DNA of 64,000 nucleotides from an uncultured Alphaproteobacteria bacterium (GTDB lineage Bacteria; Pseudomonadota; Alphaproteobacteria; CAAGCB01; CAG-977): NCBI GenBank assembly GCA_944393745.1, contig CALYBD010000001.1, positions 72,628 to 136,627 on the forward strand. Reading direction: 5' to 3'. A program made the translations under genes and the position numbers. Shown one piece after another: positions 4,685-28,535 of this stretch; positions within the stretch are counted from its first letter, which is position 1, and every line of letters starts with the position of its first letter. The notes under the pieces were generated by a model. That model did no database searches and was not told the origin of the DNA. It worked only from the letters and a program-made list of their open reading frames with translations.

Positions 4685-6078
4685 TTTTCCCCCTTCTTTT
4701 TTAAGCGAGCCGCAAAAAAACCATCGCAGCCCCCCGTTGATTCATAAAAAAACGGCAGAACACACAAATCTCCGTCCTTTGTAATCATTTCCGCCGGAAC
4801 ATCGGCAGAAGTCAACGCCACCCGTTCCACCTGACCGTTTTGAACGGCAGAATCTATTATCAGACGTCCTTCTTCGGGAAGAACCGAACAAACACAATAC
4901 ACCAACTCGCCTTGATCCGTCATCATATCGACGGCCGTTTTTAACAAGTCCGCCTGCATTTGATTTAAACGTTTAATGTCTTGCGGTGTTCTGTGCCAGG
5001 CCACATCGGGATGACGGCGCAGCGTTCCCGTTGCAGAACAGGGCGCGTCCAGTAAAACAGCATCAAATTTTGTCTGATGACGTCCTTCACTTTCCCACCA
5101 TTTGCACGCATCGGCACAAACTGTTTTTGCGTTCAAACGCAAACGATTCAAATTTTCGTTCAGTCGCCTGATACGGTTGGCAGAAACATCAACGGCCGTT
5201 ACTTCCGCCCCTGCCATAATCATCTGCGCCGTCTTTCCGCCCGGTGCCGCACAAATATCAACGGCTTTTTTCCCGGCCAATGCGTGAAACAAACGAGCCG
5301 GTAAGGCGGCAGATAAATCCTGTACCCACCAGATCCCGTCCTGAAATCCCGGTAAAGACGGAACCGAAGCCTGCTGTTTTCGCCTGAGTGTTCCCGTCGG
5401 CATTTCAACGGCCTGCAGCTGTTCGGCCCAAACGGCGGAATCGAACTTGACGCTGAAATCCAGCGGCGCTTCCCGAAAACCCGCTTCGGCAATCTTACGG
5501 GCCTTTTCTTTTCCGAATTCTTTTTCCCATTTTTCATACAGCCAGGACGGAACATTCAATTTAACGGCGTCCTGAACCTGAACAATTTGTTTTCCTTCCC
5601 GGGAAATCCGACGCAAAACAGCATTGGTCAAAGCCGAAAAACCGCCGTATTCTCTGTTCTGTTTAACCAAAGAAACGCCTGTTGAAACGGCCGCATGAGC
5701 CGGCGTATCCAAAAAAACCAGCTGAGCCGTACCGATTCTGAGAACGTCTTGAACATAGCAGGCTTTATCCGGCAGCGGCTTTTTTAAAAAACGCCCGATA
5801 ATGTCATCAATCTGTCCCAGACGACGCAACATGACGGTCGCCAGCAACCGAACAAAAGTACGATCCCTGTTTTCCAACGGCTGTTTTTGTTCCTGTCGTT
5901 CCATACAGGCGGAATATTCATCTTCCAATCCTTTATTATGCCGCAAAACGGCATCAAATATTTCAACAGCCAAACGGCGTGGCAGTAAATCAGGGCTGAT
6001 CATGCGGCGCATTCTCTTCTTTGTTTGTTTTATCCGCCGTCTTGGCTCGATGTTTTTCTTTGAATTCGGAAATTGCAA
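4681..6078 (-). CDS. rsmB: 16S rRNA (cytosine-C5)-methyltransferase RsmB/Sun; true start probably internal, near 6003
   Basis: NusB-like N-terminal region plus a NOL1/NOP2/Sun methyltransferase core (DxCAAPGGKT, LDAPCSATGTLRRHPD). The ORF 5' end overlaps the upstream membrane-protein gene. Confidence 0.85.
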   Translation of the reverse strand: MQFPNSKKNIEPRRRIKQTKKRMRRMISPDLLPRRLAVEIFDAVLRHNKGLEDEYSACMERQEQKQPLENRDRTFVRLLATVMLRRLGQIDDIIGRFLKKPLPDKACYVQDVLRIGTAQLVFLDTPAHAAVSTGVSLVKQNREYGGFSALTNAVLRRISREGKQIVQVQDAVKLNVPSWLYEKWEKEFGKEKARKIAEAGFREAPLDFSVKFDSAVWAEQLQAVEMPTGTLRRKQQASVPSLPGFQDGIWWVQDLSAALPARLFHALAGKKAVDICAAPGGKTAQMIMAGAEVTAVDVSANRIRRLNENLNRLRLNAKTVCADACKWWESEGRHQTKFDAVLLDAPCSATGTLRRHPDVAWHRTPQDIKRLNQMQADLLKTAVDMMTDQGELVYCVCSVLPEEGRLIIDSAVQNGQVERVALTSADVPAEMITKDGDLCVLPFFYESTGGCDGFFAARLKKKGEK

Positions 6079-20836: not shown

Positions 20837-23362
20837 ATGGAACGAATTTTAACAGCACTGCTCGGCCCGACGAACACGGGAAAAACTTACTTAGCCGTTG
20901 AAAAAATGTTAACGCATAAATCAGGCATGATCGGTTTTCCTTTACGCTTGCTGGCGCGCGAAAATTACGACAAAATTGTGCGGTTGAAAGGTGTTGAAAA
21001 CGTTGCCCTGATCACGGGCGAAGAAAAAATTATGCCAAAAAAGCCGTCTTATTTCGTCTGCACGGTTGAAGCGATGCCTTTGGATCACCCGGTTGATTTT
21101 CTGGCGGTTGACGAAATCCAAATGGCGGCCGACGTTGAACGCGGGCATATTTTTACAGACCGCCTGCTGCATGCGCGCGGTATGCGTGAAACCATGTTTC
21201 TGGGCGCGGAAACGATCAAGCCTTTGTTAAAACAGCTGATCCCGGAAACAGAAATCGAAACGCGCCCCCGGTTTTCAAAATTAAGCTATACGGGAGTAAA
21301 GAAAATCACGCGGCTGCCCGCGCGTTCGGCCATTATCGGATTTTCGGTGCAGGACGTGTATGCTCTGGCCGAACTGATCCGCCGGCAAAAAGGCGGCGCG
21401 GCCGTCGTTATGGGTGCGCTCAGCCCGCGGACCAGAAACGCGCAGGTCGATATGTTTCAGTCCGGCGAAGTCGATTATCTGGTCGCGACCGACGCGATCG
21501 GCATGGGACTGAATATGGATATTTCCCATGTCTGCTTTACGTCTTTGCGCAAATTCGACGGGCAGAAAATGCGCGCTTTGTCCGCCGCGGAACTGGCGCA
21601 GATTGCCGGACGCGCCGGCCGGTATATGAAGGACGGCACATTCGGCGCGGCGGCGGAAGCGTCCGCTTTGACGCAAGACGTGATTGACAGAATTGAAGAA
21701 CACCGGTTTGAACCTTTATCCCATCTGTTCTGGCGCAATCCCGATTTAAAAACAACGTCTTTGGACGCGTTGATTTACAGCCTGAATGTCCGTCCGACTT
21801 TGCCCGGTCTGATCGGTGCGCGCAAGGCAGAAGATCAACAGGCTTTGGAAATTCTGGCGCGGGATACGGGAATTTCCCGGCTGGCCAACCATGCTTCGCG
21901 CGTCAGACTGCTGTGGGAAATCTGTCAGATTCCCGATTTTCGCAAGATCACCCCCGAAGCCCACGCCCGGCTGTTGGCGCAGATTTACCGTCTGATTTTG
22001 GATAAAGGCAAATTGCCGCAGGATTGGTTTGAAAAACAAGTGAAAATGCTGGACAATACCAACGGAGATATTGATGTTGTTACGGGACGTATTGCAGGAA
22101 TCAGAATTTGGACGTATATTGCGCAAAGAAAAGAATGGATCGACCGGTCTGAATACTGGCGGGACATGACAAAAGCCGTTGAGGACAAATTGTCCGATGC
22201 TTTGCATCAAAAGCTGGCGCAGCGGTTTGTGGATAGGCGTACATCTGTTTTGGTAAAAGGTATGAAAACACAGGTAGAATTATATACGAAAATCGAAGAA
22301 GACGGCTCGGTTGAAGTCGAAGGGCAATCTGTCGGAAAAATGGAGGGGCTGCGTTTTGTGCCGATTACGGGCGCCGGGAAATTTGCGGATCGTGTTTTGA
22401 TTTCCGCGGCGGAAAAGGCTTTGCAGGCTGAATTTCAAAACAGGATTACGGCGATTCTGAATGCTGCCGAAGACGACTTTACGCTGGAAAACAATGCGCA
22501 GATTTTATGGAAGAAACAACCGCTGGGCAAAGTTGTCAAAGGACGCGATATTTTGCACCCGACTGTTGCCTTGTCCGTGCATGAATCGGTTGATCAGACA
22601 TACATTGATCAAATAAAAACCCGTTTAAACGGCTGGTTGGAAGTATACTTAGCCAACAAAATCGCCCCGTTATTTACGGCTTTGCGCACATTGGACGAAG
22701 AAAACGCTTCCGGTTCCGCCCGCGGTATTTTATGGCAGGTTGCCGAACAGCTGGGAACGATGCCGCGCGAAAAGGTATTTGATTTAATCAAAGGTCTGAA
22801 CGAAGCGGATAAAAAAGTACTGGCAAAAGCCGGCATGCGGCTGGGACATGATTATTTGTTTTTTCCGATGCTGTTAAAACCCGCGGCTCAGCGTGTTTGC
22901 GCGATTTTATGGAAAGTCTGGTTTGAACGAACGCAGTATGCGACAGGATTTGCGATTGACGGCAAGATGTCGTTTGCCGTTGAACACGGTGTGCCGCGCG
23001 CTTTGTATTTGGTACAGGGATATGCCATGGCCGGAACACGGGCAATCCGTGTCGACGTGATGGAACGCTTTACGGCAAAGTTGCGTGAAATCACACGGCA
23101 GGACAAAGGAAAACCGCAGGTTTTGCCGTTGGATCTGTTATCGATTGCCGGACTGAAACGTGATGAAGCCGAAGACGTTTTCGGCTATTTGGGATTTAAA
23201 GTCACGAAGGAAACGCAAACGACTACTGTCGGTGAAGAAACCAAAGAAACCGAAATTTTGATGATCCAACCGAAATTTAAAAAACGCAAGGCCCCTGTCA
23301 AAGCCGAACCGGTCGACATGACGTCTCCTTTTGCGGCGCTGGCGTCTTTGAAAAAGAAATGA
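20837..23362 (+). CDS. Suv3-like SF2 ATP-dependent helicase (alphaproteobacterial helicase-related protein)
   Basis: Walker A LGPTNTGKTY and Walker B/DExH-like VDEIQM. About 840 aa. N-terminal organisation resembles Suv3-type helicases. Confidence 0.6.
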   Translation: MERILTALLGPTNTGKTYLAVEKMLTHKSGMIGFPLRLLARENYDKIVRLKGVENVALITGEEKIMPKKPSYFVCTVEAMPLDHPVDFLAVDEIQMAADVERGHIFTDRLLHARGMRETMFLGAETIKPLLKQLIPETEIETRPRFSKLSYTGVKKITRLPARSAIIGFSVQDVYALAELIRRQKGGAAVVMGALSPRTRNAQVDMFQSGEVDYLVATDAIGMGLNMDISHVCFTSLRKFDGQKMRALSAAELAQIAGRAGRYMKDGTFGAAAEASALTQDVIDRIEEHRFEPLSHLFWRNPDLKTTSLDALIYSLNVRPTLPGLIGARKAEDQQALEILARDTGISRLANHASRVRLLWEICQIPDFRKITPEAHARLLAQIYRLILDKGKLPQDWFEKQVKMLDNTNGDIDVVTGRIAGIRIWTYIAQRKEWIDRSEYWRDMTKAVEDKLSDALHQKLAQRFVDRRTSVLVKGMKTQVELYTKIEEDGSVEVEGQSVGKMEGLRFVPITGAGKFADRVLISAAEKALQAEFQNRITAILNAAEDDFTLENNAQILWKKQPLGKVVKGRDILHPTVALSVHESVDQTYIDQIKTRLNGWLEVYLANKIAPLFTALRTLDEENASGSARGILWQVAEQLGTMPREKVFDLIKGLNEADKKVLAKAGMRLGHDYLFFPMLLKPAAQRVCAILWKVWFERTQYATGFAIDGKMSFAVEHGVPRALYLVQGYAMAGTRAIRVDVMERFTAKLREITRQDKGKPQVLPLDLLSIAGLKRDEAEDVFGYLGFKVTKETQTTTVGEETKETEILMIQPKFKKRKAPVKAEPVDMTSPFAALASLKKK

Positions 23363-23733
23363 GCGTTTCTCAACGTATTGACAAGTGGCTTTATTTTACG
23401 CGTTTTGCCAAAACCCGTGCGACGGCGCAGAAAATGATTGAAGGCGGACACGTTGCCGTAAACGGCGAAAAAGTCCTGAAATGCAGTCGGGAAATTAAAA
23501 TCGGTGATGAATTAAACATTCTGCGCGGTACGGTACGGTTTTACATACGCGTAACAGGTTTTGTTGAAAAAAGAGTCGGGGCACCCGTTGCGCGGACGGC
23601 GTATGAACAAATCCGGGATCCCGAAAATCTGGCACCGCCGCCGAAAAAAGCGTTTGAATCCCGCACGACCGGATCGGGACGCCCGACAAAACGCGACCGT
23701 CGCGCGATTAACCGGCTGAAGGGGAAATTTTAA
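23359..23733 (+). CDS. hslR: Ribosome-associated heat shock protein Hsp15 (S4 domain)
   Basis: S4 RNA-binding motif RIDKWLYFTRFAKTRATAQKMIEGGHVAVNG. 4-bp overlap with the helicase stop. Confidence 0.8.
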   Translation: MSVSQRIDKWLYFTRFAKTRATAQKMIEGGHVAVNGEKVLKCSREIKIGDELNILRGTVRFYIRVTGFVEKRVGAPVARTAYEQIRDPENLAPPPKKAFESRTTGSGRPTKRDRRAINRLKGKF

Positions 23734-23795
23734 TCGGCCGAATTTTTAATTTGTTTTTTTTTAAGCATAACTTTTTTACCCGATCGGTTGGCAAC

Positions 23796-24389
23796 ATGAA
23801 CAAAGATTTTTTAAAATTGGCGCGTCAAAATCAAAAAAAAGCGTTTGAAATTATTCAAATATTGAACATTTATCCCGCCTGGGAATCCGTCGGCGGGCAA
23901 GTCAATCTGATCGGATCATTGCAAACGGGACTATTGATGAAACATCTGGATATCGATTTTCATGTCTATACGCCTCAATTAAAATTATCCGACAGCTTTT
24001 ATGCCATTGAAAAAATCGCCGAACATTCCGGCGTTCAAAAAATCGAATACGCCAACTTGCTGACCGATCGGGACGCCTGTTTGGAATGGCATCTTTATTA
24101 CAATGATTCGGCCGGCAATACCTGGCAGATTGATATGATGCACATTGTCAAAGGATCGTATTTTGACGGATTTTTTGAAAACATTGCCGCACAAATCAAT
24201 CGCAAAGCGACACAACAACAAAAAGAAACCATTCTGCGTTTGAAATACGAAACGCCCGATCATGAAAAAATCGCCGGTATCGAATACTGCCGCGCCGTTT
24301 TACAAGACGGTATATCGACCTATCCGGAATTTATCAAATGGCGTGAAAAAAATGTCTTTAACGGTATTTGGGAATGGCAACCGGAATAA
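23796..24389 (+). CDS. Nucleotidyltransferase-fold protein of unknown function
   Basis: A GS...hxLDIDF arrangement (IGSLQTGLLMKHLDIDF) is typical of the pol-beta-like NTase fold. Start chosen at MNKDFL. Confidence 0.45.
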   Translation: MNKDFLKLARQNQKKAFEIIQILNIYPAWESVGGQVNLIGSLQTGLLMKHLDIDFHVYTPQLKLSDSFYAIEKIAEHSGVQKIEYANLLTDRDACLEWHLYYNDSAGNTWQIDMMHIVKGSYFDGFFENIAAQINRKATQQQKETILRLKYETPDHEKIAGIEYCRAVLQDGISTYPEFIKWREKNVFNGIWEWQPE

Positions 24390-24643
24390 CTTAAATATCT
24401 CCTTTGGCCATTTGTTTGTATAAAAATCCGATTCCGTATTTTGGCAATAAAAAATAATAAGATAAATAACAGTGTTTTTTGATTAAAAAAAAAACACAAC
24501 TTTCATATCGGAAAGCCGCGTCAATTTAACACTTAAAAATTGTACTTCCACAAAATCACCTTTTTGCCACATTTTCGCCATAATTATTAACAAAGGGAGG
24601 TGCCGTTTTTGTTTTTTCGTTTATTTTCAACATATTATCCATG

Positions 24644-24652
24644 CCCCCCCCC
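24644..24652. repeat. Homopolymeric poly-C tract (9 nt) followed 6 nt later by T8, about 90 bp upstream of the secreted-protein gene
   Basis: Sequence reads catgCCCCCCCCCtgtatgTTTTTTTT. Direct observation. Confidence 0.9.
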
Positions 24653-24739
24653 TGTATGTTTTTTTTATCATAATTTTGCCACAATTTAATCGTATTATTA
24701 AAAGTGGAAAATATGGAAATATCATAGGAGGTCCAAACC

Positions 24740-25957
24740 ATGAAAAAAATTTTCCTTCTGGCAGCAGCGGCAGGGATATTCCCCCTGTGTACTGCTCACG
24801 CTGCAGTAACACAGACAACGATGAAAAACTCTGCTGCGGCAAACCTCAGCATAGTCAACACCGGTGGTAATGGCGGCAGCACAAGCAGAAGTGCCCCTTC
24901 TGTTACGTACTCTGCGAACGTTACTAATGTTAACTCCGGTGCCACAAGCACTTCTACGTCAAAACAGCCGACGTATAACACAAGCACGTCGACGGGAAAT
25001 TTCACATTAACCTCGAACACCAGTTCCAGTAAGCTTAATACCCTTACGCCGACCGAATGGCAAACTGTAAAAGTTTCGGATCTGAGCAATGAACAGGTTT
25101 CCGGGTTATCCGGTTCGGCTATTTTAAAAATGCCCACGACATCACAGGTATCTTTGGTACAAAGAGAACCTGCAGTCATTACAAAACTGGAACCGTCTCA
25201 ACAGCTGACCCTGGTAAAGGATCAATTAAATGATTCCTCTGCCAACAAAGTAACGCTGACACCGCAGATTGTTCTGGATCGGTCTCCGAACTTGCAGATC
25301 GTAGGAACAATCGCCAAAAAAATTCCCTGTGTCGAATTTGATGCCGAAATTGTTGAAGCGCCTGAATTTCAGGTAAAATATGAACTCGACAATAACGGGC
25401 TGAAAATGGCGACTTTGACAGAGGCGGAATTTAAACCTTTTATTTCTGTAGAAAAATACCCGCAACTGTATAAAATAACGGATTGGGACCCTGAAACCGA
25501 AGTCATTAATCCGTTGACAAACAGAGTGGCATATTGCACCAGATATTCCAACAAATGCAGATTAGACACAACTCTGATCAAAAACTATATTACAAACAGA
25601 AAAATCCGCAAACTGAAACTGTGTGATAACAACTTAAAAGTGCTTCCCATTATTGATATGAAGTGCGTAGGTGTAAAATGCGGAAAAGGACAAGAATGTG
25701 TCAATGGTTGCTGTGAATATCAAGAAACAACGACAGCGAACGTAACGTTAAGACCTGCTCTGCAGTCTAAGTATGAAATCAAAGGTGTAGAGCTGATTGC
25801 CAAACCCGTAGCTTTGAAAGACGAAACAGCTAAACTGTTTCTTGATAATCCTGCCGTTGAAAAAGAGGTACTTGATTCAAAAGTCCTGATGGAAAAGGCG
25901 ACAAACACCGTACAAGGCCGTCTGCAGGCTTTAAAACCCATGATGATGGCGCAATAG
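24740..25957 (+). CDS. Secreted Ser/Thr/Asn-rich protein with C-terminal Cys-containing domain; paralogous to downstream gene
   Basis: Signal peptide MKKIFLLAAAAGIFPLCTAHA. Strong AGGAGG RBS. Low-complexity S/T region. A Cys motif KCGKGQECVNGCC is shared with the next protein. Confidence 0.6.
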   Translation: MKKIFLLAAAAGIFPLCTAHAAVTQTTMKNSAAANLSIVNTGGNGGSTSRSAPSVTYSANVTNVNSGATSTSTSKQPTYNTSTSTGNFTLTSNTSSSKLNTLTPTEWQTVKVSDLSNEQVSGLSGSAILKMPTTSQVSLVQREPAVITKLEPSQQLTLVKDQLNDSSANKVTLTPQIVLDRSPNLQIVGTIAKKIPCVEFDAEIVEAPEFQVKYELDNNGLKMATLTEAEFKPFISVEKYPQLYKITDWDPETEVINPLTNRVAYCTRYSNKCRLDTTLIKNYITNRKIRKLKLCDNNLKVLPIIDMKCVGVKCGKGQECVNGCCEYQETTTANVTLRPALQSKYEIKGVELIAKPVALKDETAKLFLDNPAVEKEVLDSKVLMEKATNTVQGRLQALKPMMMAQ

Positions 25958-25991
25958 TTTGGCAAACCTAATGATTTAAAGGAGAAATCTT

Positions 25992-27140
25992 ATGAAAAAA
26001 CTGTTTGTGTTTTTTACGGTTGCCTGGTTTGCCGCAAGCTCTGTTCAGGCTGTGGAAACTTCCGGCACATTTTCAGATGATACGATTACGCTTGCCTCTG
26101 CGATAAAAATCGGAAAAGGCGGAATTGTTTCAAGTTCGCAATATATTCCCGGAGTAAGCAACGGCTTTCCCGGCGGTGGCGGCGGTGGCGGCGGTGGCGG
26201 CGGTAATGATGTCGATCTGGCCGTCTGTTCAACCGACAACGATTGCGAATACAATGAAAAATGTTCTGCCGATCACGCCTGTGTTCCTGTTTGTACACCG
26301 AACAGCTGCAGCAAAGGACAGATGTGCGTTAATACCGCAGCTCATGTCGGCAAGTGCGGTCTGGCCTGCGATTTCGTTACCTGTGAAAACGGCCTGAAAT
26401 GTGTCAACGAAGGCAGCAGCGCGAAATGTGTAAGATGTATTACGGACAGCGATTGCGGTAGTAACGGCGTATGCACGGCGAACAATATCTGCCTTTATAA
26501 AGTCATCAACTTGTGCAGCAATAAGAACTGCGACAAAGGACATCGTTGCTTCCTCGGACGGTGCGAACCGTATCCGCTCGGATCCACGGAAGACCCGCAG
26601 TGTTCCAGCACACAGGTTGCCGATGGTTCTGGCGGCTGCATAAATCCGTGCGAAGGCGTCGTCTGCCCGCGCGGAAAGATCTGCACCGTTTCCAGAAGCA
26701 ATTCCAAAGGAAAAGCCTGCTGTGGTGACTGTACACTCAAAGCCGTTAACCTGGGAAGCCTGAAGACAATTAATTCGCAGTTAAAACTTTCAACAGCAAC
26801 GCCGTTGAAGTGGCACCCGCAATTAAATGTCTGTCTGCCGCAAATCGCTTATCCGGCGTTTAAGGCCGAAGACTTCGTCATCGCTAAAAAACCGCTTCCG
26901 TATACGGGATTGGTCAGAGCTGTTGAATTGGATACCAATCTGACAGACAGAACGATTACCGGGTTGATTAAAGCAACACCTGTAGAATTCAAGCCTGACA
27001 ACACTTTGTCAGTTAAAAAGGCTGTGGAATTGCGTTCGGATCCCGTGATTGTAAAAGCGATCACCAATCCTAAGGCTACAACACTGACTGTTGAAAAAAC
27101 GACGGTTAACTCTTCACCGATACTGACTCAACTGAAGTAA
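25992..27140 (+). CDS. Secreted protein with Gly11 tract and about 8 tandem 3-Cys modules (Cys-rich repeat extracellular domain)
   Basis: Signal peptide MKKLFVFFTVAWFAASSVQA. Repeating CxxDxDC...C...C units of about 22-25 aa. The C-terminal non-Cys domain resembles the previous protein. Confidence 0.6.
   Translation: MKKLFVFFTVAWFAASSVQAVETSGTFSDDTITLASAIKIGKGGIVSSSQYIPGVSNGFPGGGGGGGGGGGNDVDLAVCSTDNDCEYNEKCSADHACVPVCTPNSCSKGQMCVNTAAHVGKCGLACDFVTCENGLKCVNEGSSAKCVRCITDSDCGSNGVCTANNICLYKVINLCSNKNCDKGHRCFLGRCEPYPLGSTEDPQCSSTQVADGSGGCINPCEGVVCPRGKICTVSRSNSKGKACCGDCTLKAVNLGSLKTINSQLKLSTATPLKWHPQLNVCLPQIAYPAFKAEDFVIAKKPLPYTGLVRAVELDTNLTDRTITGLIKATPVEFKPDNTLSVKKAVELRSDPVIVKAITNPKATTLTVEKTTVNSSPILTQLK
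26172..26204 (+). repeat. In-frame (GGC GGT GGC)n trinucleotide/9-mer repeat encoding Gly11
   Basis: ggcggtggc repeated about 3.7 times inside CDS 25992-27140. Confidence 0.9.
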
Positions 27141-27158
27141 TCCCGGTCTAACCTAAGG

Positions 27159-27187
27159 AAAAGCCCCCGGCAACGGGGGCTTTTTTT
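27159..27187 (+). terminator. Intrinsic terminator after the secreted-protein gene pair
   Basis: aaaagcccccggcaacgggggcttttttt. Confidence 0.7.
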
Positions 27188-27374
27188 ATACCATGAAAAT
27201 CCGTGTCGCTTAACTGCGGCTGTGTGTCTTTCTTGTAAACAAAAGACTTTTTTGTGCGACAGAAACGTCGTTTCAATCTTGCAAAACTTCCGAAACCATT
27301 GACGAATAAAAGCAACACAAAACATTGTTCTGCCCTGCGTTATATACGAGGAAGTTTTTTAAAACGACAACCGT

Positions 27375-28535
27375 CTAATCATCGTAGGCGCCGCGCCGTC
27401 CGATCTGAACATCGCGGTTAACATTGACGCATTCAATCAAACCGAACGAAAACATCAATGTCAGCATAACCGTCCCGCCGTAGGAAATCATCGGCAAAGG
27501 CACGCCGACAACAGGCAGCAGTCCCATCACCATGGCAATATTGATAAAAACATACAAAAACAAATTCGTCGTTAACCCCAAAGCCAGCAAACGACCAAAA
27601 AAGCTGGTGGATCTGAAGGCAATCACATAACCGTAAAAAATCAATGCCAAATACAACAATAACAAAGATACCGATCCGATCAGGCCGAATTCTTCGGCTA
27701 AAACGGTAAAAATAAAATCCGTATGCTTTTCCGGCAAAAAATTCAGCCGGCTTTGTGTCCCCTGCAAAAATCCTTTCCCGAAAACACCGCCCGATCCCAA
27801 CGTAATCTTGGATTGCAGAATATGATATCCTTTACCCAACGGATCACGTTCCGGATCCAAAAAGGTAAAAACGCGTTCTTTTTGATAATCATGCAGGAAT
27901 CGCCAGGCAATCGGAATGGAAATCAATCCGGCCACCCCCAGTGCGGCAAATTTCCACATCTGAACACCGACCAAAAAGAACAATGTCAAAGACCCCGCCC
28001 CCATTAAAACCGCCGTTCCCAAATCAGGTTGCTTTAAAACCAACGCGACCGGAATTAAAACCATAAATGACGGAATGACAATGGCCGACATACTCATCAT
28101 TTCCTGCAAAGAACTGCCGTGAAAATACCGGGAAAGCGCCAAAATCAACGCTATTTTCATCAATTCGGACGGCTGTATCCGAATAAATCCTAAATTCAGC
28201 CAACGCTGCGCCCCCATGGCATCATGACCGAAATATTCCACAAAAAACAATAAAGCCACCGCACCGATATAAAAAATATACGCATATTTCAGCCAGAAGC
28301 GCAGATCAATCATGGCAACAACGAACAATACCGCGCAGCCCATCCAGAAACGATAAAATTGCCGGCTGGCCCAGGGTTCCCAATTTCCGTTCGCCGCAGC
28401 ATACAAAACGACAAAACCGGAAGCCGCAACTAAAAAAATCAAAAAAATGTAACACCAGCTGAGGTTTAAAAAACGTTCCTTCAGCGTCAGATTCGGATCA
28501 CGCAGTCTGAAAGGCGAAAAATCAGATGTTATCAT
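27375..28535 (-). CDS. mrdB: Rod shape-determining protein RodA (SEDS family)
   Basis: FtsW/RodA/SpoVE family polytopic membrane protein. Final gene of the mreBCD-mrdA operon. Confidence 0.88.
   Translation of the reverse strand: MITSDFSPFRLRDPNLTLKERFLNLSWCYIFLIFLVAASGFVVLYAAANGNWEPWASRQFYRFWMGCAVLFVVAMIDLRFWLKYAYIFYIGAVALLFFVEYFGHDAMGAQRWLNLGFIRIQPSELMKIALILALSRYFHGSSLQEMMSMSAIVIPSFMVLIPVALVLKQPDLGTAVLMGAGSLTLFFLVGVQMWKFAALGVAGLISIPIAWRFLHDYQKERVFTFLDPERDPLGKGYHILQSKITLGSGGVFGKGFLQGTQSRLNFLPEKHTDFIFTVLAEEFGLIGSVSLLLLYLALIFYGYVIAFRSTSFFGRLLALGLTTNLFLYVFINIAMVMGLLPVVGVPLPMISYGGTVMLTLMFSFGLIECVNVNRDVQIGRRGAYDD

What the first reader, a model, noticed from the sequence alone, without database searches (positions are those of the whole stretch)
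24390..24740. Poly-C(9)/T(8) tract in the long AT-rich promoter region of a secreted-protein operon: candidate phase-variation switch
A 350-bp intergenic region precedes the secreted Cys-rich gene pair. About 90 bp upstream of the start codon it holds an uninterrupted C9 run followed 6 nt later by T8. Homopolymeric C/G tracts of 9 or more are classic slipped-strand mispairing sites. They alter promoter spacing or upstream-ORF phase and switch surface-protein expression on and off. This organism is otherwise sparse in such tracts; I saw no other in this window.
Basis: partly seen in the sequence, partly recalled or inferred. Interest (0 to 1): 0.55.

Follow-up and report, generated by a model that had tools for sequence, protein, structure and literature searches.

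The report
Length-variable poly-C tract in operon promoter
A run of nine cytosines sits just upstream of a two-gene operon for secreted proteins in an uncultured gut alphaproteobacterium; the run is kept at the same spot in every related species examined but changes length between near-identical strains, which marks a slipped-strand "contingency" switch of a well-known kind.

Summary
C9 lies at 24644-24652 and T8 at 24659-24666, in a 350-bp, 30% GC intergenic region, 87 nt before the ATG of a two-gene secreted-protein operon. It is the only G/C run longer than 6 in 64 kb. One such run is not improbable by chance (about 0.02-0.3 expected per window). Comparison with other assemblies is what settles it. 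Among 13 assemblies of this lineage, the tract is C9 in nine and C8 in three. One C8 assembly has 0/2778 substitutions against the window. An A10 and the T8 in the same region never change length in these near-identical assemblies. In at least six further orthologous lineages (proteins 45-65% identical, in two genomic contexts) a poly-C tract occupies the same position, 12-16 nt upstream of an invariant CATAAT. Its length there is 12-20, it differs between samples, and assemblies often break there. I conclude it is a hypermutable promoter-region tract kept by selection, and that it most likely tunes transcription by changing promoter spacing. It works like the Bordetella fim C-stretch or Neisseria opc. 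The transcription start, the expression effect and within-sample heterogeneity remain untested. The kind is known; this is a new member, in an uncultured commensal.

The parts
24644..24652 (+). Poly-C tract (C9 here; C8 in three other assemblies of the same lineage; C12-C20 in orthologous promoters)
24653..24668 (+). Spacer between the tract and CATAAT. It is T-rich and includes the T8 at 24659-24666. Its sequence is not conserved and it is 12-16 nt long across lineages. T8 does not change length in this lineage.
24669..24674 (+). CATAAT, invariant in all lineages. First candidate for the -10 hexamer; the tract would then lie at about -37..-29, in the -35 position.
   Evidence: conservation; the -10 assignment is inference
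24674..24685 (+). Third copy of the 12-mer TTTYGCCAYAWT (TTTTGCCACAAT). It reads as a TGn-extended -10 (TGcCACAAT) and is the second candidate for the -10; the tract would then lie at about -48..-40.
   Evidence: 3 copies against 0.31 expected, all in this region; TTTACA-16-CACAAT with TG in L011
24562..24584 (+). Two tandem copies of the same 12-mer, 11 bp apart (TTTTGCCACATT, TTTCGCCATAAT), about 100 bp upstream of the third copy. They are conserved in position in other lineages. They could be operators, an activator site, or a second upstream promoter (CTTCCA-17-CACATT).
24620..24630 (+). Invariant A/T block TTTATTTTCAA, 13 nt upstream of the tract. It is the candidate UP-like or activator element whose distance to the core promoter is set by the tract.
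   Evidence: invariant columns; the role is inference
24694..24731 (+). Conserved leader block ATTATTAAAAGTGGAAAA (24694-24711) followed by the Shine-Dalgarno AGGAGG (24726-24731)
24740..25957 (+). Gene 1: 405-aa protein with a signal-peptide-like N-terminus, a variable S/T-rich region and a conserved Cys-containing C-terminal domain. No Pfam, NCBIfam or PDB match.
25992..27140 (+). Gene 2: 382-aa Cys-rich (29 Cys) protein with a signal-peptide-like N-terminus and a Gly11 linker. It starts 34 nt after gene 1 and has its own SD. No family match.
27156..27187 (+). Intrinsic terminator closing the two-gene operon (GCCCCCGGCAACGGGGGC followed by T7). The same hairpin follows gene 2 in L011.
   Evidence: -23.6 kcal/mol, z -5.8

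Best explanation
The C9 run is a hypermutable simple-sequence 'contingency' tract. It lies in the upstream promoter region of a two-gene operon that encodes orphan secreted proteins. Slipped-strand mispairing during replication adds or removes cytosines. The tract sits between conserved upstream elements and an invariant core. The upstream elements are the A/T block TTTATTTTCAA and two tandem TTTYGCCAYAWT copies. The core is CATAAT / TGcCACAAT, a conserved leader and the SD. Each length change therefore alters the spacing and helical phase between the upstream elements and the -10 region, so transcription of the operon is switched or graded among cells of a clone. Shown here: the tract exists, its position is conserved across the whole protein family, it varies in length between near-identical strains and between samples of sister lineages, and it stays linked to the operon whatever lies upstream. 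Inferred: the location of the promoter, the effect on transcription, and high-frequency reversibility.
For: (1) In the window lineage, nine sequences (the window plus eight assemblies) have C9 and three have C8. L007 has C8 with 0/2778 substitutions against the window. L022 has C8 with 7/7217. L002 (C8) and L008 (C9) share a second haplotype and differ by 5/2602. (2) Among the near-identical strains, over up to 7.2 kb, the tract is the only site whose length varies within a haplotype. The A10 and T8 in the same intergenic region do not change length within the window's haplotype, which serves as an internal control. (3) Orthologues from at least six further lineages all carry poly-C at the same position, 12-16 nt upstream of invariant CATAAT. 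The lineages are those of P0003, P0004, P0005, P0006, P0008 and P0009, plus the P0017-linked L042, whose first gene is 364 aa, the length of P0007. The spacer next to the tract has diverged. Lengths are 12, 13, 13, 14, 14, 14, 16 and 20, plus two single-base-interrupted tracts. (4) Of the 30 contigs read for those lineages, 19 begin inside the tract and one begins directly after it, including contigs of 13-68 kb. In this lineage, contig L006 ends in the tract. (5) In 203 kb of fetched loci, the only G/C run of 7 or more is this tract. (6) The tract travels with the operon. The upstream neighbour is a co-directional 197-aa gene in the window and in L042, but a divergent zf-CDGSH gene in the P0003 lineage. 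(7) The 71 nt from CATAAT to the ATG are nearly invariant although the proteins are only 45-65% identical. (8) Tract length partly compensates for flank length. The distance from motif copy 2 to copy 3 is 100-101 in the window lineage (C8/C9) and 100-101 in the P0003 lineage at C13/C14, although the non-tract DNA differs by 5 nt. (9) Precedent: in Bordetella, the C-stretch in fim2, fim3 and fimX promoters sets the distance between the activator region and the -10, and even C7 against C8 changes fimX transcript levels (PMC1891110). In meningococcus, the opc poly-C tract tunes transcription (PMC6389960).
Against: No transcription start site or expression data exist, and the simple sigma-70 scan finds no promoter spanning the tract in the window. 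Two different -10 candidates lie 11 nt apart and cannot be told apart. Two of the three C8 calls come from low-coverage contigs (2.6x for L007, 4.1x for L022), and coverage of the third (L002) is not known. G/C homopolymers are error-prone in Illumina data, and contig breaks could be technical rather than heterogeneity. The spacing compensation fails in L042: the motif-to-motif distance is 106 at C14. C8/C9 is near the lower limit of tract mutability. A single C9 in 64 kb is not statistically remarkable on its own.
Confidence: 0.68

Rival explanations
1. The tract is transcribed and acts in the RNA. A promoter at the upstream TTTYGCCAYAWT copies (about 24545-24573) would produce a 5' leader of about 160 nt that contains poly(C). 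Tract length could then tune Rho loading (poly-C is the classic Rho activator), pairing with the AGGAGG Shine-Dalgarno, or the frame of a small upstream ORF (ATG-CCC-CCC-CCC...).
For: Sigma-70-like matches fall at the same aligned position upstream of the tract in three lineages: CTTCCA-17-CACATT in the window (read from the alignment), CTGCCA-17-CATAAT in L011 and ATGACA-17-CACAAT in L042. The MFE fold of the putative leader pairs the 3' part of the C-run with the SD. An ATG abuts the tract in the window and in the P0003 and P0008 lineages. A 29-aa GTG ORF spans the tract.
Against: The leader fold is no better than shuffled sequence (z +0.52). The ATG next to the tract is absent in L042 (CTCTTTG followed by C14). 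The SD-like GGGAGG abuts the GTG directly and is absent in other lineages, so no upstream ORF is conserved. The upstream promoter matches reach only 9 of 12. Nothing tests Rho involvement.
Confidence: 0.15
2. This is operator-spacing control of the nadA/NadR type. The three TTTYGCCAYAWT copies are binding sites for one regulator: two in tandem 11 bp apart upstream, and one overlapping the core promoter. The tract between them sets how well the sites cooperate or loop, so that length changes alter repression or activation rather than RNA polymerase contacts. This is a variant of the best explanation, not an alternative to phase variation.
For: The 12-mer occurs three times in the window, against 0.31 expected, and all three copies are in this intergenic region. 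The copies flank the tract in all three lineages where the full region is available, with a constant 11-bp tandem spacing and about 100-106 bp to the third copy. There is a precedent for operators flanking a phase-variable tract (PMC2791445).
Against: No regulator is identified. The motif also reads as a plain (extended) -10 element, so the copies may simply be promoters. In some strains (L002, L008, L013) one upstream copy carries substitutions.
Confidence: 0.2
3. The tract is a chance homopolymer with no regulatory role, and the apparent length differences are sequencing or assembly errors at a G/C homopolymer.
For: One C9 per 64 kb is within chance expectation (0.02-0.3). Two of the three C8 contigs are low-coverage, and coverage of the third is unknown. 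Illumina data degrade in long C/G runs, which could explain the contig breaks.
Against: Chance does not explain a poly-C at the same promoter position in at least seven lineages whose adjacent spacer has diverged, nor the absence of any other G/C run of 7 or more in 203 kb. Lengths in the P0003 lineage range from 12 to 16, including contigs at 21.6x and 11.7x coverage, which is more than a +/-1 error. The longer A10 in the same assemblies shows no length noise.
Confidence: 0.05

Closest known systems
Bordetella pertussis / B. bronchiseptica fimbrial promoters (fim2, fim3, fimX): 'C-stretch' plus fim box, activated by BvgA
   Same: Both have a poly-C tract just upstream of a -10 element, where a -35 would lie. 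Lengths run from about 7-8 in one paralogue to 13-19 in others, which parallels C8/9 here against C12-20 in sister lineages. Length sets the distance between an upstream conserved element and the -10. The controlled genes encode exported proteins (PMC1891110).
   Different: There is no sequence homology with the fim box or with fimbrial genes. The organism is an uncultured gut alphaproteobacterium, not a betaproteobacterial pathogen. The activator, if any, is unknown. The products here are orphan secreted proteins, not fimbrial subunits. No expression data exist.
Neisseria meningitidis opc promoter poly-cytidine tract (Sarkari et al. 1994, as cited in PMC6389960)
   Same: Both have a poly-C tract in the promoter region that tunes transcription in steps. 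Shifts of one to a few C are seen between clones: 11C to 12C or 14C in 5 of 17 clones.
   Different: The species, the gene and the surrounding promoter differ. For opc the relation between length and expression was measured; here it is inferred.
Neisseria meningitidis nadA promoter (TAAA repeats flanked by NadR operators, with IHF between them)
   Same: In both, a repeat tract lies upstream of the core promoter, with copies of a conserved motif on both sides, so that tract length changes the spacing between distal elements and the promoter (PMC2791445).
   Different: The nadA tract is a tetranucleotide repeat, not a homopolymer. NadR and IHF binding were shown experimentally. Here the flanking 12-mers are only a sequence pattern, with no known binder.

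Membership tests
Promoter-located simple-sequence contingency locus (transcriptional phase variation by slipped-strand mispairing) | An uninterrupted homopolymer or short repeat long enough to slip (G/C runs of about 7-8 or more) | tested here: met
   C9 at 24644-24652; C12-C20 in orthologous promoters
Promoter-located simple-sequence contingency locus (transcriptional phase variation by slipped-strand mispairing) | Tract length differs among otherwise near-identical strains, with recurrent changes on different backgrounds | tested here: met
   C8 and C9 occur on two haplotypes. L007 has 0/2778 substitutions but C8. Among the near-identical strains, no other site varies in length within a haplotype over up to 7.2 kb. 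The P0003 lineage has C12, C13, C14 and C16. Caveat: some contigs have low coverage.
Promoter-located simple-sequence contingency locus (transcriptional phase variation by slipped-strand mispairing) | Length heterogeneity within a single population or culture (high-frequency, reversible switching) | not testable with these tools
Only indirect evidence exists: 19 of the 30 contigs read for sister lineages begin inside the tract and one begins directly after it, and L006 ends in it. A technical cause is possible.
Promoter-located simple-sequence contingency locus (transcriptional phase variation by slipped-strand mispairing) | The tract lies within or directly next to promoter elements (the -10/-35 spacer, the -35 region, or between an activator site and the core) | tested here: inconclusive
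   The tract lies 12-16 nt upstream of an invariant CATAAT and 23-27 nt upstream of the hexamer of TGcCACAAT, which would place it at -37..-29 or -48..-40. No TSS data exist, and the consensus scan finds no canonical promoter across it in the window.
Promoter-located simple-sequence contingency locus (transcriptional phase variation by slipped-strand mispairing) | Expression of the downstream gene depends on tract length | not testable with these tools
   This needs reporter fusions, or transcript or protein measurements.
Promoter-located simple-sequence contingency locus (transcriptional phase variation by slipped-strand mispairing) | The controlled gene encodes a surface or secreted product | tested here: met
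   Both products begin with MKK, then a hydrophobic core, then an AxA-like site (MKKIFLLAAAAGIFPLCTAHA|AV; MKKLFVFFTVAWFAASSVQA|VE), read directly from the sequence. No signal-peptide predictor was run.
Bordetella fim-type promoter (C-stretch + fim box + BvgA) | A conserved fim box and BvgA-dependent activation | not tested
   The sequences are not homologous by inspection, and no BvgA-type regulator was sought. This is treated as a functional analogue only, not as membership.
nadA/NadR-type operator-spacing switch | Regulator-binding operators on both sides of the tract | tested here: inconclusive
   A conserved 12-mer flanks the tract (three copies against 0.31 expected by chance). Protein binding cannot be tested, and the motif can equally be read as a -10 element.

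The most novel reading that the evidence does not exclude
The tract is transcribed from the upstream copy of the duplicated promoter block and works in the RNA. A heritable poly(C) segment of adjustable length, in an otherwise U/A-rich leader, would act as a tunable Rho-loading site (or anti-Shine-Dalgarno element). Slipped-strand mutation would then set the level of premature termination or translation, rather than promoter geometry. This would be a phase-variation mechanism not described so far. My evidence neither supports nor excludes it.
Probability: 0.08. Interest if true: 0.75.

Novelty: new member of a known kind. Interest (0 to 1): 0.45.

Why it matters
Phase variation through homopolymer slippage is textbook biology for mucosal pathogens such as Neisseria, Haemophilus, Bordetella, Campylobacter and Helicobacter. 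To my knowledge it is little documented in uncultured gut commensals, where invertible promoters dominate the literature. In this case a whole clade of uncultivated, Rhodospirillaceae-like gut alphaproteobacteria keeps a poly-C tract in front of one orphan secreted-protein operon. That singles out these two uncharacterised proteins as probable targets of fluctuating selection from host immunity, phage or niche. The mosaic, recombined C-terminal domain of gene 1 seen in one strain points the same way. There is also a practical consequence: the tract systematically breaks short-read assemblies at this locus.

Tried and rejected
- **Known RNA element in the intergenic region:** rejected. The Rfam E-value scan of 23300-27600 gave only two sub-threshold chance hits elsewhere. 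The whole-window gathering scan and the tRNA scan found nothing.
- **Upstream ORF whose frame is set by the tract:** rejected. The ATG-(CCC)n peptide and the 29-aa GTG ORF lack a usable SD, and neither the ATG nor the SD-like sequence is conserved.
- **Structured leader or poly-C:SD pairing:** not supported. The fold is no better than shuffles.
- **Strict conservation of total spacing through tract and flank compensation:** it holds for the window and P0003 lineages (100-101 bp) but fails for L042 (106 bp), so I use it only as weak support.
- **Function of the controlled proteins:** nothing found. There are no Pfam, NCBIfam or PDB sequence hits. The AF2 model has mean pLDDT 56 and no Foldseek hit in PDB with E below 1. 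The afdb50 library was unavailable.
- **Wider census:** limited. The genome-contig scan returned only one locus because its peptide patterns were too loose. The metagenome scan returned two. The look-up with the 212-aa version of the upstream ORF found nothing, and the 197-aa version gave no new strains.
- **Markov simulation:** it timed out and was replaced by an analytic estimate.
- **Minus-strand promoter at the TTTCAA block:** predicted in L042 only and, by my reading of the window and L011 sequences, not conserved.

Full report
**1. The observation**

The sequence is as described. The intergenic region 24390-24739 is 350 bp and 30.3% GC, against 45.9% for the window. It contains C9 at 24644-24652, then TGTATG, then T8 at 24659-24666. 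There are 87 nt between the end of the tract and the ATG at 24740, which has AGGAGG at 24726-24731.

A census of all homopolymers shows C9 is the only G/C run longer than 6 in 64 kb; there are seven runs of 6. Extrapolating from the decay of shorter runs gives about 0.02-0.3 C9 or G9 per 64 kb. The run is therefore unusual for this DNA, but it is not significant on its own.

**2. The genes**

The tract precedes a two-gene operon.
- Gene 1 (24740-25957) encodes 405 aa.
- Gene 2 (25992-27140) encodes 382 aa with 29 Cys. It starts 34 nt after gene 1 and has its own SD.
- A strong intrinsic terminator closes the unit at 27156-27187 (-23.6 kcal/mol, z -5.8).

Both products begin with signal-peptide-like N-termini. 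This was read directly from the sequence; no predictor was run.

Neither protein matches Pfam, NCBIfam or PDB sequences. An AlphaFold model of gene 1 has mean pLDDT 56, with the core at residues 210-360 reaching 75-90. It has no Foldseek match in PDB.

Both protein families are tiny: 10 and 12 clusters in 5.8 billion proteins, all unnamed. The one titled relative is 'uncultured Rhodospirillaceae bacterium isolate UMGS1296'. The flanking genes (Suv3-like helicase, S4-domain protein, RodA, PBP2) are housekeeping genes.

**3. Tract length in the same lineage**

The exact 405-aa protein is on 21 contigs from independent metagenome assemblies. Variants at 99% and 82% identity add two more contigs.

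| Tract state | Sequences |
|---|---|
| C9 | window, L001, L003, L004, L005, L008, L009, L010, L021 |
| C8 | L002, L007, L022 |
| contig ends in the tract | L006 |

I aligned all 13 sequences over up to 7.2 kb. Among the near-identical strains only two sites carry an indel: the tract, and the A10 run, which has a fixed 1-nt difference plus a substitution in haplotype B. The only other indels are four in-frame 3-nt gaps in the divergent L021.
- L007 has 0/2778 substitutions against the window, yet carries C8.
- L022 differs at 7/7217 positions and carries C8.
- L002 (C8) and L008 (C9) share a second haplotype that differs from the window at about 1% of positions. They differ from each other at 5/2602 positions.

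The length has therefore changed at least twice, on different backgrounds, in strains with almost no substitutions. A10 and T8 keep their length within the window's haplotype, which argues against generic homopolymer noise. Caveat: L007 has 2.6x coverage and L022 has 4.1x. Coverage of L002, a 233-kb contig, is not stated.

**4. Conservation across the family**

I fetched DNA for the following orthologues:
- P0003, P0004, P0005, P0006, P0008 and P0009;
- the second-gene orthologue P0017 (locus L042, whose first gene is 364 aa, the length of P0007).

Their proteins are 45-65% identical to the window protein. The loci have two genomic contexts. One is RodA/PBP2 downstream, as in the window. The other has an ABC/HlyD pair and a divergent zf-CDGSH gene upstream, with a 735-aa gene downstream.

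Every lineage has a poly-C tract at the same position, 12-16 nt upstream of an invariant CATAAT.

| Locus | Tract |
|---|---|
| L011 | C12 |
| L023, L037 | C13 |
| L014, L042, L029 | C14 |
| L015 | C16 |
| L034 | C20 |
| L012 | C6-A-C7 |
| L013 | C5-T-C10 |

The spacer between the tract and CATAAT has diverged in sequence and length. The tract has nevertheless been retained, which points to selection for the tract itself.

Of the 30 contigs read for these lineages, 19 begin inside the tract and one (L036) begins directly after it. These include contigs of 13-68 kb. This fits within-sample length heterogeneity, but also the known difficulty of sequencing long C/G runs, so I do not count it as proof.

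In all 203 kb of fetched loci, the only G/C run of 7 or more is this tract.

**5. Anatomy of the region**

An alignment of the window, haplotype B, two P0003-lineage alleles and L042 shows the following order, from upstream to downstream.
1. Two tandem copies, 11 bp apart, of a 12-mer TTTYGCCAYAWT, at 24562 and 24573.
2. A divergent stretch.
3. An invariant TTTATTTTCAA at 24620-24630.
4. A short divergent stretch.
5. The tract.
6. The divergent T-rich spacer.
7. A nearly invariant 71 nt from CATAAT (24669) to the ATG. This holds a third copy of the 12-mer (24674), ATTATTAAAAGTGGAAAA and the SD.

The 12-mer occurs three times in the window against 0.31 expected, and all three copies are in this region. 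In the fetched loci I checked, it occurs only in this promoter.

With Y = T the motif reads TGcCAYAAT, which is an extended -10 element. The scan tool flags TTTACA-16-CACAAT with an upstream TG in L011.

There are therefore two candidate -10 elements, CATAAT and TGcCACAAT. They would place the tract at about -37..-29 (in place of a -35) or at about -48..-40 (just upstream of the -35 position). Either way, the tract separates the conserved upstream blocks from the core promoter.

The distance from motif copy 2 to copy 3 varies as follows.

| Lineage | Tract | Distance (bp) |
|---|---|---|
| window | C8 / C9 | 100 / 101 |
| P0003 | C13 / C14 | 100 / 101 |
| L042 | C14 | 106 |

The window and P0003 lineages reach the same distance although their non-tract DNA differs by 5 nt. 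That suggests compensation, but the L042 value shows it is not a strict rule.

**6. Mechanism**

The best-supported reading is a promoter-region contingency tract. Slippage changes the spacing and phase between the upstream elements and the core promoter, and so changes transcription of the operon.

The steps shown are hypermutability between strains, conservation of the tract, and its linkage to the operon. The steps inferred are the promoter position, the expression effect, and the rate and reversibility of switching.

Three rivals remain.
- **RNA-level action in a long leader from an upstream promoter.** Matches sit at the same aligned place in three lineages, but each is only 9 of 12. The leader has no significant fold and no conserved upstream ORF.
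- **A NadR-like operator-spacing variant.** The motif copies flank the tract, but no binder is known.
- **Chance plus sequencing error.** This is contradicted by the cross-lineage conservation and by the 12-20 length range, which includes contigs at 11.7x and 21.6x coverage.

**7. Comparison with known systems**

The locus works like the Bordetella fim2/fim3/fimX C-stretch promoters. In those, tract length sets the distance between the activator region and the -10. Tracts range from C7/8 in fimX to C19, and a single C changes transcript levels (PMC1891110). It also resembles the meningococcal opc poly-C promoter (PMC6389960). The flanking repeated motif recalls nadA/NadR (PMC2791445).

There is no sequence homology to any of these, so I file it only under the general class 'promoter-located simple-sequence contingency locus'. 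For that class:
- tract presence, polymorphism among near-identical strains and a secreted product are met;
- promoter overlap is inconclusive;
- within-population heterogeneity and expression dependence could not be tested.

**8. Verdict**

The mechanism is of a well-known kind. What is new is the host, an uncultured gut alphaproteobacterial clade, together with the orphan secreted operon and the clade-wide conservation of the tract. Interest is moderate.

Noticed in passing
window 26171-26204: A perfect 9-nt tandem repeat (CGGCGGTGG, 3.8 copies) encodes the Gly11 linker of gene 2. Gly-run length differs among orthologues (2-8, against 11 here). This could be an in-frame slippage site. No length difference was seen among the near-identical strains.
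   Followed up: partly
window 25303-25896 vs L021 (ERZ17292902): Strain L021 is mosaic. Its promoter, the N-terminal half of gene 1 and gene 2 are nearly identical to the window (0-5 differences per 100 nt). A block of about 600 nt that encodes the otherwise conserved Cys-containing C-terminal domain differs at 175 positions, about 30%. This looks like allelic replacement by recombination, as expected for a protein under diversifying selection.
   Followed up: partly
window 24485-24522: An A10 run is followed by a hairpin that scores as a minus-strand intrinsic terminator (12 pairs, then T10 on the minus strand), although no minus-strand gene ends there. In haplotype B (L002, L008) the A10 is interrupted and shortened to ATAAAAAAA. 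Its role is unknown.
   Followed up: partly
L038 about 5400-5610 (ERZ779737 contig, coverage 3.4x): A coding sequence that, by my reading of its translation, resembles a type I restriction-modification methylase (HsdM) runs straight into the sequence immediately 3' of where the tract should be, with no Cs at the junction. This is probably a chimeric assembly at the tract, but a real rearrangement is not excluded.
   Followed up: no
L042 1883-2059 (minus strand): Between the 197-aa gene and the promoter cassette lies a 58-aa remnant of the N-terminus of the zf-CDGSH gene. That gene is intact (236 aa) and divergent from the operon in the P0003 lineage. The operon therefore seems to have kept about 300 bp of its upstream DNA through rearrangements.
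   Followed up: partly
L012 2901-2914; L013 2899-2914: Two P0003-lineage assemblies have single-base interruptions in the tract (C6-A-C7 and C5-T-C10). These could be stabilising mutations or consensus errors in long homopolymers.
   Followed up: no
L009 about 865-885 (ERZ24773407, coverage 2.4x): Five substitutions, all to T, cluster just after the T8 run. This looks like a low-coverage read-end artefact rather than real variation, and it was not counted as evidence.
   Followed up: no
window 1-64000: No tRNA gene and no Rfam family at gathering score were found in the whole 64 kb.
   Followed up: no
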